Below are positions 43,988 to 46,900 of a stretch of 64,000 nt of DNA, one piece after another. Position numbers: made by a program. Position 1 is the stretch's first letter. Every line of letters begins with the position of its first letter. The DNA is from Escherichia coli (GTDB lineage Bacteria; Pseudomonadota; Gammaproteobacteria; Enterobacterales; Enterobacteriaceae): the NCBI RefSeq assembly GCF_044647545.1, contig NZ_CP172818.1. One strand, written 5' to 3'.

Positions 43988-46900
43988 TGACCACAACAGA
44001 CTACCTGAAGGGAGCCGCGGTCGCCTGGCAGTTGCAGTAGCAGGAGATCATCCAGCCGCAGTACAGGTCACGATGACTCTGGTTAATGATACCGGCTTTG
44101 ACCCCGTATTTTCCGGCTCTATCGCTGAATCATGGCGTCAGCAGCCGTGCACACCATCCTATTGTTGTGACTGGGAGGCTGCCACCATGCTTCGCGCTTT
44201 CCCTCTGGCGAAAAAGGGAGAAGGACGGGCCCGTCTGCCTTCACTTTATGCCAGCTTCGGTAAGCTGGGTGAGACACCGACTCATGAAGATATCATTGAT
44301 AACAATCGATCCATCAACTGGCCTGTATAACGTGGCTGCCGGTGATTAAGAAAGCTGCACCTACCTAAGTAGTAGCAAACGCACACTTTTTAGAAAAATC
44401 GATGGTCAGAAACTGGATTAGCAATTCCGTTCCATGGTTGCTTTTGATTTACGTTGGCGTCTGATCATTGATTTATCCTCAAAAGCCCAACCTCATTGGT
44501 AATGAACCAGCTCCGTGAATGTCCGCTCTGGCACAGAGCGAAATTTTTTGATCTCCCCCCTGAAATCTAAACTTAGTCATGTCACGTTTTTGGGTTTCTA
44601 AAATTTTAACTTCGCGTTTTTCGTTGCCGTAAGGGTTATACAGAAATGTCCGTTAAGCAGAGTTCAAAATTGATTGCCGTGATCACGACTGGTTTGAAAG
44701 CCGCGCCCAAGCCTGTACAGCTCTGGTTTGCGTTGATTATGAACCTGTCAGCCTAAAGCAAGCGGATGGACGATGAGTATTGGTAATCTTTCAGAGTCCG
44801 GAAAAGTTCAGCCCCAGTCTGAACAGGCTTGCTGGCGCCAGTCCAGTTTCATTCAGTCGTGGTTTGGTTCTTACGGCCTGTGCAATCTACCTCATTAGGC
44901 ACATCGGCCTGCCAGATACCGGCTCGGGGTGTATTTCCGCTTCCACGCTGAATACTGTTCTCAGCAATCCTGGGGTCATCACCTCTTCTGGTGTGCCTTG
45001 CGCCATAACATGTCCGTTTGCCATTACCACCAGTTGATCGCAGTACCGGCTAGCCTGATTAAGGTCGTGCAGCACAGCGACCACCGTTTTCCCCTGAGTC
45101 CGGAGTTCGCCCATCAACCGCATCAGGTCCACCTGGTGATTGATATCAAGATAGGTGGTTGGCTCATCAAGTAATACAACGGGCGTATTCTGGGCCAGGA
45201 CCATTGCCAGAAATGCGCGCTGGCGCTGACCGCCGGAAAGCTCGGTTAACCGACGAACGGCAAGATGATTGATCCGGGTCTGGTTCATGGCGACATTAAC
45301 TCGTGCATTGTCTTCAGCGGAGAGACGCCCCCAGAGTGACAGCCAGGGATTACGACCATACGAAACCAGCTCCTGGACTGTGATCCCCTCTGGCGTTAAA
45401 TGGTGCTGAGGCAGCAGCGAAAGCCTGCGGGCCAACTGGCGCGATGAGAGCATATTTATGGGATTATCGCCGAGAAATACGGTGCCAGACTGCGGCATTA
45501 AAAGCCGCGAAAAACAGTTTAACAGCGTCGATTTCCCGCAACCGTTAGGACCGATCAGGGCGGTGATCTTCCCCGTTGGCAGTGAGAGTGAAACGTCGTT
45601 AAGTACCTTGTCTGTCCCGTAACTGACCGTCAGATTTTCAGTTCGTAAAGTCATTTATCGCATTCTCACAAGCAACCAGACAAACCACGGCGCACCGATA
45701 ATGGCGGTCAGCACGCCAACCGGGAGCTCCAGTGGGGGATGAATAATTCTCGCCAGCAGATCGGCAACCACCAACAGCAACGCACCTGTCAGGGCCGAAA
45801 CAGGCAGCAGTCTGCGGTGACGTCCACCGGTGATGCTACGCATCATATGCGGCACCACGAGACCAATAAAGCTAATCGGGCCGCAGGCGGCCACGCCGGT
45901 AGATGTCATGGCGACAGCTAGTAACAAAGCCCAGAATCGGGTATGGGGCACCGACACACCGAGCGTGGTGGCGCGCGCATCGCCGAGTGCAAGGAGGTCG
46001 AGATCGCGGCAAAAACTCAGGCTCAGCGGCAGAAATAAAATCATCAGCGGGATGGCAATCTTCACAAAGCTCCAGTCACGGCCCCATAAGCTGCCGGTCA
46101 GCCACAGCAGGGCGTTGTTCACATCCTGCGGGCGCGAGAGCATCAGATAATCCGTCAGGCTGGCCCAGCATGCAGAAAGCGCCACGCCGGTGAGCGCCAG
46201 CTTCATCGGCTGGTGGGTCTTTGCCAGCATCTTCAGCAATATCAACCCCGCCATGCCGCCCGCAAAGGCCAGCAGCGGCAGCACCATCACGGGCAGTGAC
46301 GGCATAAGAAGTAGAGCCCCCACAGAGGCCAGGCTGGCGGCATGGTTAACACCGAGAATATCCGGTGATGCCAGAGGGTTGCGCACAATCCCCTGTATCA
46401 GCACGCCCGCCACGGCGAGGGCTGCACCGACAAACAGTGCCAGCAGCAAGCGCGGCAGTCGGTACTCCATCAATACATAATAATGCTCGTGTCCGGCCTG
46501 CCAGTCGGTCAGCAGCGCGCGCCACGGCACGGGGATCACTCCCATATGGAGTGATAACAGCGCACAGCCCGCCAGGGCAAGGGTGATGAAAATAACCAGC
46601 GCAATTTTCATCCTCGCCTCCTCACAAGCCAGACAAAGCAAGGGCTGCCAATCAGCGCCAGCACTGCGCCTGCGGGCAGATCTCCGGGGAAGGCCAGCGC
46701 GCGTGCGAGTACATCTGCCAGCAGCATCAGCGTGGCCCCCAGCAGCATGCTCACTGGCAGTACGTTGCGCTGATCGAAGCCTGCCCAGAAGCGCGCCAGA
46801 TGTGGCACCAGCAGACCGATAAACGCCACCGGACCTGCTACGCTGACGCACGCACCAACCAGAAGCAGCACTAACATATTGATGACCAAACGTAGCCTCG

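What the first reader, a model, noticed from the sequence alone, without database searches (positions are those of the whole stretch)
44331..44886. ~550-bp unassigned spacer between the yjhV-like fragment and fecE
No ORF with recognisable features; composition looks coding-like in places. Probably a degraded gene remnant, and worth a similarity search because fec-flanking sequence varies between strains.
Basis: seen in the sequence. Interest (0 to 1): 0.2.

Follow-up and report, generated by a model that had tools for sequence, protein, structure and literature searches.

The report
Junction scar downstream of fecE
The unannotated 556 bases between the yjhV pseudogene and fecE in E. coli K-12 are a patchwork of leftover flanking DNA and insertion-sequence debris rather than a hidden gene, but the 156 bases next to fecE are conserved more than neutral DNA should be and I could not explain why.

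Summary
The window is E. coli K-12 MG1655, and 44331-44886 is the unannotated gap between the yjhV pseudogene and the fecE stop codon. In detail: no ORF lying wholly inside exceeds 36 aa (a 41-aa one runs 12 nt into fecE), and there is no Rfam hit.

The spacer is a mosaic.
- 44331-~44515 is the native 3' flank of the NAD(P)-binding gene of which yjhV is the C-terminal stump (86% identical to a Raoultella chromosome).
- 44516-44543 is a junction piece with a terminator-like hairpin and an IS-end-like motif.
- 44544-44628 is AT-rich DNA of unknown origin, shared with one other fec lineage at about neutral divergence.
- 44629-44741 is a relic of an ISKpn21-like (ISNCY/IS1202-group) element: a terminal-repeat motif plus about 26 transposase codons.
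- 44731-44886 is the ancestral fecE 3' flank. It is 77-82% identical among four fec lineages whose fecE fourfold-degenerate sites are only 43-55% identical.

That flank shows no coding signal, stable fold, covariation or terminator, so its conservation is unexplained.

The "degraded gene remnant" reading is partly right, for about 110 of 556 bp. The spacer does not vary within E. coli: it is at least 99% identical in about half of complete genomes. Verdict: an ordinary rearrangement scar of low interest, with one small open question.

The parts
44001..44330 (+). yjhV pseudogene (context). It is the C-terminal 109 codons of a ~248-aa NAD(P)-binding protein of the F420_oxidored / NAD_binding_2 type. 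The N-terminal part was cut off by the IS911 end at 44000.
   Evidence: RefSeq annotation. tblastn against the Pantoea agglomerans plasmid protein WP_109651334 gives 65% identity, E 5e-65. A full-length gene lies in the Raoultella terrigena chromosome, locus L007.
44331..44515 (+). Native untranslated 3' flank of the yjhV parent gene.
   Evidence: A continuous 86% DNA match runs from window 43999 to ~44514 against Raoultella L007 5416-5934, that is, 184 nt past the stop codon. Homology is then lost abruptly.
44516..44543 (+). Junction segment. It holds a 7-bp GC-rich hairpin (44524-44540, CGCTCTG-GCA-CAGAGCG) followed by AAATTTTTT, and an IS1202-group end-like motif AATGTCCGCTCTGGC (44519-44533).
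   Evidence: Terminator-like hit. Matched by eye, AATGTCCGCTCTGGC against ISKpn21 IRL AATGTCCGCCTGTGGC is roughly 13 of 16 with one gap (IR sequence). The local match to Kluyvera L017 +216..245, itself IR-like, scores 29 with 0 of 500 shuffles reaching it. The segment is absent from Raoultella and from L015.
44544..44628 (.). AT-rich (37% GC) stretch of unknown origin, lying outside the IS relic's end. It is shared with fec lineage L015.
   Evidence: The alignment of K12 with L015 is continuous to about window 44544. Identity is 76.7% over 197 nt, against 74% at fecE fourfold-degenerate sites for the same pair, which is about neutral. There is no similarity to ISNCY transposases and no other hit in the plasmid or E. 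coli collections.
44629..44661 (+). Terminal-inverted-repeat-like end of an IS1202-group (ISKpn21-like) element, reading outside-to-inside towards fecE.
   Evidence: An exact 13-mer GAAATGTCCGTTA (44643-44655) equals the inner core of the ISKpn21 right IR. Its local alignment score is 26 with 0 of 300 shuffles reaching it. The PWM of the four ISKpn21 end motifs scores 12.6 at 44634-44652, with no hit in 8.4 kb of neighbouring sequence and 0.085 hits per shuffled spacer. By eye, 23 of 33 bases match the IR (sequences).
44663..44741 (+). Fragment of an ISNCY (IS1202-group) transposase gene, about codons 147-172 around the first catalytic Asp region. It has in-frame stop codons on both sides.
   Evidence: blastn gives 80% over 79 nt to ISKpn21 in 1,285 plasmid records, E 6e-9. 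tblastn gives 17 of 25 aa. NCBIfam NF033594 matches with E 8.5e-4 at profile positions 131-154. The homologous fragment is also present in L015. No further transposase similarity lies on either side.
44731..44886 (-). Ancestral 3' flank of fecE, presumably the 3' UTR of fecABCDE. It is conserved above the neutral level and its function is unknown. The block CTGAACCTGTCAG at 44739-44751 is invariant. The junction with the IS fragment overlaps it at a GTTGAT microhomology.
   Evidence: Shared with Kluyvera L017, Salmonella plasmid L010 and K. variicola plasmid L011 at 0.79, 0.80 and 0.77 identity, where fecE fourfold-degenerate sites are 0.55, 0.44 and 0.43. fecD, fecC and fecB fourfold-degenerate sites are 0.58-0.61.
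44887..45654 (-). fecE (context). It is the last gene of fecABCDE, and its stop codon abuts the spacer.

Best explanation
The spacer is a passive rearrangement scar inside the mobile fec module, made of pieces with different histories.

Shown:
- The left third is the untranslated tail of the NAD(P)-binding gene whose stump is yjhV.
- The right 156 nt is the DNA that has followed fecE since before several fec lineages diverged.
- Between them lies debris of an ISKpn21-like (IS1202-group, ISNCY family) insertion sequence: one terminal-repeat motif plus about 26 transposase codons, and a second end-like motif exactly at the junction with the yjhV-side DNA.

Inferred history:
- An IS1202-group element inserted about 156 nt downstream of fecE in an ancestor of these fec lineages.
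- In the K-12/L015 branch, a deletion from transposase codon ~172 to the element's fec-proximal end left the far end plus a short gene fragment. A GTTGAT microhomology sits at that join.
- In the Kluyvera/Salmonella/K. variicola branch, only the fec-proximal end survived.
- A later event joined this fec block to the 3' flank of the NAD(P)-binding gene. That event was probably also IS-mediated, given the end-like motif at 44519-44533.
- IS911 then truncated that gene.

Nothing in the spacer needs to be functional for this picture. The central pieces diverge at about the neutral rate. The one exception is the fecE-proximal 156 nt, which evolves about as slowly as fecE itself. My best guess, which is inference only, is that it acts in cis on the fecABCDE transcript as its 3' UTR, in termination or stability.
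For: - Identity and annotation of the region.
- Left piece: an 86% match to the Raoultella chromosome continues 184 nt past the yjhV-homologue stop and ends at ~44515.
- IS fragment: blastn E 6e-9 to ISKpn21 in 1,285 plasmids. The match falls at nt 443-522 of the transposase CDS. tblastn gives 68% over 25 aa. NF033594 matches with E 8.5e-4.
- IR motif next to the fragment, in the right orientation.
- The same IS fragment and 'middle' stretch occur in lineage L015 (FecE 89% identical) at 76.7% identity, against 74% at fourfold-degenerate sites.
- IR-like motifs facing fecE occur in L017 and L010, starting where K-12 homology to them ends.
- fec flank: homology to L010, L011 and L017 starts at 44731 and runs into fecE.
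- The whole block is at least 99% identical in 2,736 of 5,426 complete E. coli genomes and 12-13 plasmids. In the strains inspected it sits in different chromosomal neighbourhoods.
Against: - The parent IS was not found. ISKpn21 is only 68% (aa) and 80% (nt) identical over a very short stretch.
- A full-library HMMER search with the conceptual translation returned no transposase at E <= 0.001.
- The IR assignments rest on 13-25-nt matches and a 4-sequence PWM. The gapped motifs at 44519-44533 and in L010/L017 are individually weak.
- About 115 bp (44516-44628) has no identified source.
- The order of events is inferred from five lineages only.
- The conserved 156 nt does not fit a purely 'junk' reading.
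Confidence: 0.8

Rival explanations
1. The fecE-proximal 156 nt (up to ~245 nt in Kluyvera and K. variicola) is a functional non-coding element of the fec transcript. It could be a 3'UTR-derived small RNA, a stability or processing determinant, or a Rho-dependent termination region.
For: - Flank identity is 0.77-0.82 between lineages (0.92 for L010-L011 and 0.90 for K12-L015), against 0.43-0.55 (0.64 and 0.74) at fecE fourfold-degenerate sites. fecD, fecC and fecB give 0.58-0.61.
- Unrelated flanks align at 0.46-0.54.
- No terminator separates the flank from fecE, so it should be transcribed with the operon.
- A 13-nt block is invariant in five lineages, next to a site that shows all four bases.
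Against: - No Rfam hit.
- Folding z-scores are -1.3 to +0.6 on both strands in four lineages.
- The alifold covariation term is positive, with at most 3 compensatory pairs.
- No intrinsic terminator lies at its end.
- L015 has lost 86 nt of it, L016 keeps only about 16-25 nt, and six other fec lineages have unrelated flanks, so it is dispensable for Fec.
- No expression data were found. The one Term-seq supplement I searched does not mention fecE.
Confidence: 0.25
2. The flank only looks constrained. It shares a more recent ancestor than the fec genes, for example through recombination that replaced the fec genes or the flank, or through homogenisation via the adjacent IS.
For: - The flank is always bordered by IS debris: IS1202-like, IS3, IS5, IS30 or IS66.
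- fec fourfold-site identity varies along the operon, from 0.43 in fecE to 0.61 in fecB, which hints at some mosaicism.
Against: - Identity drops from flank level to third-position level right at the stop codon. There is no gradient in the last 300 nt of fecE.
- The same excess is seen in all six pairwise comparisons among four lineages.
- The flank is not found anywhere except next to fecE, so it is not itself a repeated mobile sequence.
Confidence: 0.2
3. The spacer hides a small protein gene, either the 41-aa ORF 44773-44898 (+) or the 36-aa ORF 44646-44756 (+).
For: - Both have ATG starts.
- The 41-aa ORF lies in the conserved flank, and its first 19 codons are similar in other lineages.
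Against: - No reading frame shows an excess of synonymous change. The synonymous fraction is 0.15-0.27 against 0.22-0.23 in column shuffles.
- Mismatches show no 3-periodicity.
- The ATG is ATA in L010, Kluyvera has a stop at codon 20, and L010/L011 carry a 1-nt G-run indel that shifts the frame.
- The 36-aa ORF is formed by the IS terminal repeat plus the transposase fragment read out of frame.
- The only database 'homologues' are ORF calls on the same locus.
Confidence: 0.04
4. The whole 556 bp is the decayed remnant of one gene.
For: There is a short ex-coding patch, and the composition is intermediate.
Against: - Three different sources align to non-overlapping parts, with sharp breakpoints at ~44515, ~44544 and ~44731.
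- Six-frame comparison with the only detectable protein family finds 25 aa and nothing else.
Confidence: 0.02

Closest known systems
ISKpn21 (ISNCY family, IS1202 group; 2,278 bp as delimited here by its inverted repeats on pKp202_2)
   Same: 44663-44741 matches transposase codons 147-172 (80% nt, 68% aa). 44643-44655 is identical to the inner core of its right inverted repeat. The motif and the gene fragment are in the mutual orientation expected for a left end followed by the transposase gene.
   Different: Only about 110 of 2,278 bp is represented. The rest of the transposase, the accessory ORF and the second end are all missing. Divergence shows that the parent was a different, unidentified member of the group. 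The NF033594 score is 18.6 bits against a cut-off of 250.
yjhV (b4286) pseudogene and its intact homologues (NAD(P)-binding, F420_oxidored-type; Raoultella and Pantoea)
   Same: The left 185 bp of the spacer is collinear with the DNA downstream of the intact Raoultella gene, so it belongs to the same captured fragment as yjhV.
   Different: It is non-coding flank, not part of the pseudogene. The current annotation stops at the stop codon and leaves it unassigned.
IS-bounded mobile fec locus of E. coli (KpLE2 region of K-12), with IS1 upstream and IS911 downstream. That this arrangement has been described for K-12 and the Shigella SRL island is from my own recollection, not checked here.
   Same: The same IS3-family/ΔyjhV/spacer/fecEDCBA block occurs at different chromosomal sites and on plasmids.
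   Different: I found no description of the internal make-up of the yjhV-fecE gap, of the older IS1202-group relic, or of the conserved fecE 3' flank. The literature searches gave nothing relevant.
3'UTR-derived regulatory RNAs of enterobacterial operons (for example CpxQ and SdhX; named from general knowledge)
   Same: Position directly after the last stop codon of an operon, and conservation above the neutral level.
   Different: No shared terminator hairpin, no stable or covarying structure, no expression evidence, and patchy retention among fec lineages.

Membership tests
IS1202-group (ISNCY family) insertion sequence | Transposase that matches the family model (NCBIfam NF033594) above its cut-off | tested here: not met
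   18.6 bits against a cut-off of 250. Only profile positions 131-154 match. Intact ISKpn21 scores 496 bits in the same call.
IS1202-group (ISNCY family) insertion sequence | Complete DDE catalytic core in an open reading frame | tested here: not met
   Only the region around the first Asp (codons ~147-172) is present, bounded by stop codons.
IS1202-group (ISNCY family) insertion sequence | Two terminal inverted repeats carrying the GGCTCAAT-N-ATGTCCG motifs | tested here: inconclusive
   One convincing end-like motif at 44634-44655 and a weaker one at 44519-44533 in the same orientation. There is no inverted partner in K-12. The full 25-nt ISKpn21 IR has no match with up to 3 mismatches in the window. 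The partner end seems to survive in L017 and L010 instead.
IS1202-group (ISNCY family) insertion sequence | Target-site duplication flanking the element | not testable with these tools
   In each lineage one end has been deleted, so the two flanks cannot be compared.
NAD(P)-binding F420_oxidored-type gene (yjhV parent) with its 3' flank | Collinear homology to an intact gene and to the DNA downstream of it | tested here: met
   86% over 520 nt to Raoultella L007, extending 184 nt past the stop. 65% aa identity to the Pantoea protein.
NAD(P)-binding F420_oxidored-type gene (yjhV parent) with its 3' flank | N-terminal Rossmann (PF03807) domain present | tested here: not met
   The yjhV translation gives no significant Pfam hit. 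The domain lies at residues 2-93 of the full-length homologue, upstream of the IS911 cut.
Intrinsic (Rho-independent) terminator, candidate at 44524-44540 (+) | GC-rich stem-loop immediately followed by a U tract | tested here: inconclusive
   A 7-bp stem (5 GC pairs) with a 3-nt loop, but three A residues precede the T6 run. Three such hits were found in the region, against 1.3 +/- 1.2 in shuffles. The hairpin is not conserved in Raoultella or L015.
Structured cis-regulatory RNA or 3'UTR-derived sRNA (fecE flank, 44731-44886) | Sequence conservation above the neutral expectation | tested here: met
   0.77-0.82 against 0.43-0.55 at fourfold-degenerate sites.
Structured cis-regulatory RNA or 3'UTR-derived sRNA (fecE flank, 44731-44886) | Thermodynamically stable or covarying secondary structure | tested here: not met
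   z-scores of -1.3 to +0.6. Covariation terms are positive. Only four lineages were available, so power is low.
Structured cis-regulatory RNA or 3'UTR-derived sRNA (fecE flank, 44731-44886) | Match to a curated RNA family | tested here: not met
   No Rfam match at E <= 1 in the flank in K-12, L017, L010 or L015.
Structured cis-regulatory RNA or 3'UTR-derived sRNA (fecE flank, 44731-44886) | A discrete transcript or 3' end in vivo | not testable with these tools
   No expression data were available. The one supplement search found nothing.
Small protein gene | ORF, start codon and frame conserved, with an excess of synonymous change | tested here: not met
   Start loss, premature stop and frame-shifting indel are seen in other lineages.

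The most novel reading that the evidence does not exclude
The ~156-245-nt stretch that follows fecE in one clade of mobile fec loci could be a functional non-coding element. It might be a 3'UTR-derived regulatory RNA, or a cis determinant of termination or stability of the ferric-citrate transport mRNA. Alternatively it might be a preferred target site for IS1202-group elements. It has been kept under purifying selection while the IS debris beside it decayed neutrally.
Probability: 0.15. Interest if true: 0.5.

Novelty: new member of a known kind. Interest (0 to 1): 0.2.

Why it matters
The main value is housekeeping. The result assigns an origin to about 80% of one of the unannotated gaps in the reference E. 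coli genome. It also shows that the fec module carries an older IS1202-group scar beneath the well-known IS911/IS1 borders. That scar helps reconstruct how the ferric-citrate uptake genes, a fitness factor in mastitis and urinary isolates, became mobile. The only part that could matter beyond annotation is the fecE-proximal flank. If its conservation reflects function, it would be a previously unnoticed regulatory piece of a classic iron-uptake operon.

Tried and rejected
- Rfam at permissive thresholds on K-12 and three related loci found nothing in the region.
- Word-indexed protein searches with the yjhV stump and with the conceptual translation of the IS fragment returned mostly ORF calls on the same locus.
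- The full-library HMMER search with that translation returned two such ORFs and no transposase.
- A GTDB-representative genome scan with a 19-base conserved pattern gave two chance hits, in Granulicella and Burkholderia.
- A metagenome scan with a two-anchor pattern gave only two more copies of the K. variicola-type locus.
- I first read 44634-44662 as an upstream extension of the transposase frame ('P*GLYRNVR*AEF' against 'PQPRYRRPCTGEL'). I dropped this in favour of the terminal-repeat alignment, which fits much better.
- A match of the flank's frame to the last 14 aa of another ISNCY transposase ('EEFRASLKR*', E 0.006; 25 of 30 nt) was considered. I judged it probably chance, because that IS continues about 400 bp past its stop codon, nothing after the match aligns, and there is no coding signature.
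- No terminal inverted repeat links the flank to the fecI-upstream end of the module.
- Literature searches on yjhV, yjhW and fecE+IS911 gave nothing about the gap. A fecE+sRNA search mostly hit the word 'feces'.
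Full report
**Where this is.** The window is E. coli K-12 MG1655. A 911-bp query spanning the region is 100% identical to K-12 strains. 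Window coordinate + 4465803 gives the NC_000913.3 coordinate. The finding, 44331-44886, is the unannotated gap between the yjhV pseudogene (b4286, 44001-44330, + strand) and the stop codon of fecE (44887-44889, - strand). Upstream of yjhV lies the nested IS911/IS30/IS600 cluster. Downstream lies fecEDCBA-fecRI and then IS1F.

**Check of the observation.**
- Nothing is annotated in the gap in RefSeq K-12 or under PGAP in other strains.
- The longest ORFs lying wholly inside are 36, 33 and 28 aa. A 41-aa ORF starts inside and runs 12 nt into fecE.
- GC is 45%, against 54-57% for the neighbouring genes.
- Promoter-like and terminator-like hits are within shuffle expectation, repeats are unremarkable, and Rfam finds nothing credible.

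**Distribution.**
- The block from the IS911 end through yjhV and the spacer to the fecE end is at least 99% identical in 2,735 records from 2,736 of 5,426 complete E. coli genomes. The spacer alone is covered at 80% or more in 2,710 genomes.
- It also occurs on 12-13 plasmids, including a 9.5-kb Klebsiella oxytoca plasmid.
- In an ST131 strain and in UMNK88 the same IS3-family fragment/yjhV/spacer/fecE arrangement sits in different neighbourhoods. So the spacer travels as part of a fixed mobile fec module.

**Left piece, 44331-~44515.**
- yjhV is the C-terminal 109 codons of a ~248-aa NAD(P)-binding protein. It is 65% identical to a Pantoea plasmid protein with PF03807/PF03446 domains.
- A Raoultella terrigena chromosome (L007) carries the full-length gene next to an HxlR-type regulator.
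- The DNA match to it (86% over 520 nt) does not stop at the stop codon. It continues 184 nt into the spacer and is lost abruptly at about 44515.
- This third of the spacer is therefore the native untranslated flank of the yjhV parent gene.

**The IS fragment, 44629-44741.**
- A 'distant' blastn against plasmids hit 1,285 records at 80-90% over window 44667-44745, all inside the ISKpn21 (ISNCY family) transposase gene. The match falls at nt 443-522 of the 1,404-nt CDS.
- At protein level, FKIDCRDHDWFESRAQACTALVCVD matches residues 147-171 (17 of 25). NCBIfam NF033594 (ISNCY transposase) matches at profile positions 131-154 with E 8.5e-4, far below the family cut-off.
- No other part of the spacer resembles the transposase in any frame.
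- ISKpn21 is delimited on pKp202_2 by its inverted repeats, giving 2,278 bp. Each end carries two copies of a GGCTCAAT-N-ATGTCCG motif.
- Window 44643-44655 (GAAATGTCCGTTA) is identical to the inner core of the right repeat. Its local score is 26, reached by 0 of 300 shuffles.
- A PWM of the four motif copies scores 12.6 at 44634-44652. It has no hit in 8.4 kb of adjacent control sequence and 0.085 hits per shuffled spacer.
- The motif lies about 10 nt upstream of the transposase fragment and reads towards it, as a left end would.
- So 44629-44741 is an internally deleted relic: one end plus about 26 codons.
- The parent IS is not ISKpn21 itself and was not found.

**The fecE flank, 44731-44886.**
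- Searching with the fecE end plus the spacer showed two classes of divergent plasmid fec loci.
  - In the common K. pneumoniae type, homology starts exactly at the fecE stop codon, and a truncated IS66 element follows.
  - In Salmonella (L010) and K. variicola (L011) IncF plasmids, homology continues 156 nt past the stop, to window 44731.
- I sampled further FecE lineages through their encoding contigs.
  - A Kluyvera chromosome (L017, FecE 84%) has the full flank.
  - L015 (FecE 89%) has the first 48 nt, an 86-nt deletion, and then the rest.
  - L016 keeps only about 16-25 nt.
  - L018-L022 have unrelated flanks and a different FecE C-terminus.
- The join between the IS fragment and the flank in K-12 overlaps at GTTGAT, which is present in both the ISKpn21 gene and the L010-type flank. 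This suggests a microhomology-mediated deletion.

**The stretch between, 44516-44628.**
- L015 shares with K-12 the flank, the IS fragment and the sequence beyond it, down to about window 44544.
- Over this 197-nt IS-plus-'middle' stretch the two are 76.7% identical. Their fecE fourfold-degenerate sites are 74% identical. This DNA therefore looks neutral, and it has been attached to fec since before these two lineages split.
- The 'middle' (44544-44628, 37% GC) lies outside the IS end and has no other homologue.
- The last 28 bp (44516-44543) holds the hairpin CGCTCTG-GCA-CAGAGCG followed by AAATTTTTT and the motif AATGTCCGCTCTGGC. By eye this motif resembles ISKpn21 IRL positions 18-33 and an IR-like segment of Kluyvera at +207..245.
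- Its position exactly at the breakpoint with the yjhV-side DNA suggests, weakly, that this junction was also made by an IS1202-group element.

**The other end of the IS.**
- In L017, L010 and L011 the sequence beyond the 156-nt flank is not the K-12 IS fragment. It is another stretch shared among those three, about 50 nt at ~84% identity and up to ~245 nt from the stop in L017/L011.
- That stretch carries IR-like motifs reading away from fecE. L017 +207..231 against IRL 9-31 scores 26, reached by 0 of 300 shuffles. L010 +173..190 scores 21, reached by 2 of 300.
- Together with K-12, this fits one ancestral IS1202-group insertion about 156 nt downstream of fecE. The K-12/L015 branch kept its far end and a gene fragment. 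The other branch kept its near end.
- Further IS debris (IS3, IS5 and IS30 families) borders these relics in individual loci.

**The unexpected part.**
- The 156-nt flank is too conserved. Pairwise identity is as follows:

| Pair | Flank identity | fecE fourfold-degenerate sites |
|---|---|---|
| K12-L017 | 0.79 | 0.55 |
| K12-L010 | 0.80 | 0.44 |
| K12-L011 | 0.77 | 0.43 |
| L017-L010 | 0.82 | 0.51 |
| L017-L011 | 0.79 | 0.50 |
| L010-L011 | 0.92 | 0.64 |

- fecD, fecC and fecB give 0.58-0.61 for K12-L011. Unrelated flanks align at 0.46-0.54. There is no gradient within the last 300 nt of fecE.
- I tested the obvious explanations.
  - Coding: no frame has a synonymous excess and there is no 3-periodicity. 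The 41-aa ORF loses its ATG in L010, has a stop at codon 20 in Kluyvera, and is frame-shifted by a G-run indel in L010/L011 that is itself polymorphic.
  - Structured RNA: z-scores are -1.3 to +0.6 on either strand. Alifold covariation terms are positive, with at most three compensatory pairs. Rfam finds nothing.
  - Terminator: none in K-12 or Kluyvera.
  - Transposon end: no inverted partner near fecI, and the flank occurs only next to fecE.
- Two metagenome copies added no new lineage.
- With four informative lineages, the power to detect structure is low.
- The conservation is real but unexplained. L015, L016 and six other lineages show the element is dispensable for Fec.

**Verdict.** The spacer is an ordinary multi-event junction scar inside a mobile gene cluster. 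But that remnant is a 26-codon transposase shard next to its IS end, not a decayed cellular gene. Most of the gap is non-coding flank from two different sources. Interest is low. The only item worth a cheap experiment is the conserved fecE 3' flank.

Noticed in passing
window 43156-52700 and loci L005, L006: The whole unit, from the IS3-family fragment through ΔyjhV, the spacer and fecEDCBA-fecRI (with IS1 beyond in K-12), is at least 99% identical in about half of complete E. coli genomes. It sits next to different genes in ST131 (BCCT transporter/DUF2254) and UMNK88 (lpxM/virK/capU). It also occurs on 12-13 plasmids, one only 9.5 kb from K. oxytoca.
   Followed up: partly
L003 3462-5739 (ISKpn21 on pKp202_2): Each end of ISKpn21 carries two direct copies of a ~19-nt motif (GGCTCAAT-N4-ATGTCCG) 24 nt apart. 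These are presumably transposase-binding sites. A second, different ISNCY transposase gene lies just after it (5853-7199).
   Followed up: partly
FecE C-termini in L010, L011, L015, L016, L017 versus L018-L022: fec lineages that share all or, in L016, only the first ~16-25 nt of the 3' flank end FecE in ...MC(L/V)(M/V)R*. Chromosomal Enterobacter/Lelliottia-type loci end in ...MCVVV* or ...MCVVI* and have unrelated downstream genes. In L018 and L020 an obvious hairpin follows directly after the stop.
   Followed up: no
L015 3816 (equivalent to window 44753-44838): Lineage L015 has a clean 86-nt deletion inside the conserved flank, between short CTG repeats. It keeps the invariant CTGACAGGTTCAG block.
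   Followed up: partly
L023 13400-13530; L011 ~5100: A metagenome copy of the K. variicola-type locus has a different sequence joined about 40 nt beyond the flank; by its ending I took it for an IS30-like element end, which I did not test. It also has one extra G in the G-run where L010/L011 differ from K-12 by 1 nt, so that indel is a homopolymer slip.
   Followed up: no
L010 10456-10665 (- strand): Sub-threshold Rfam match to psRNA2 (RF02349, 41 bits against a gathering score of 65, E 5e-7) on the Salmonella IncF plasmid, next to an IS481-family transposase gene.
   Followed up: no
window 44755 (flank index 24): A single site shows A, T, G and C in the four lineages. It sits between a 13-nt block invariant in five lineages and a conserved AAGCA. 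It is the loop position of a small 7-bp hairpin (UCAGCUU...AGGCUGA on the fecE-sense strand), and it is also the third base of a Leu codon in one frame. Neither reading could be confirmed.
   Followed up: partly
window 44887-44916, fecE-sense strand just after the stop: In the fecE frame, the codons right after the stop read x(T/A)QAVR(T/N)... in all five lineages, with two synonymous changes. They are followed by a stop after 9 codons in three of the lineages. The 'start' position is ATG, GTG, ATT or ATA. This is probably just part of the conserved flank rather than a mini-ORF.
   Followed up: no
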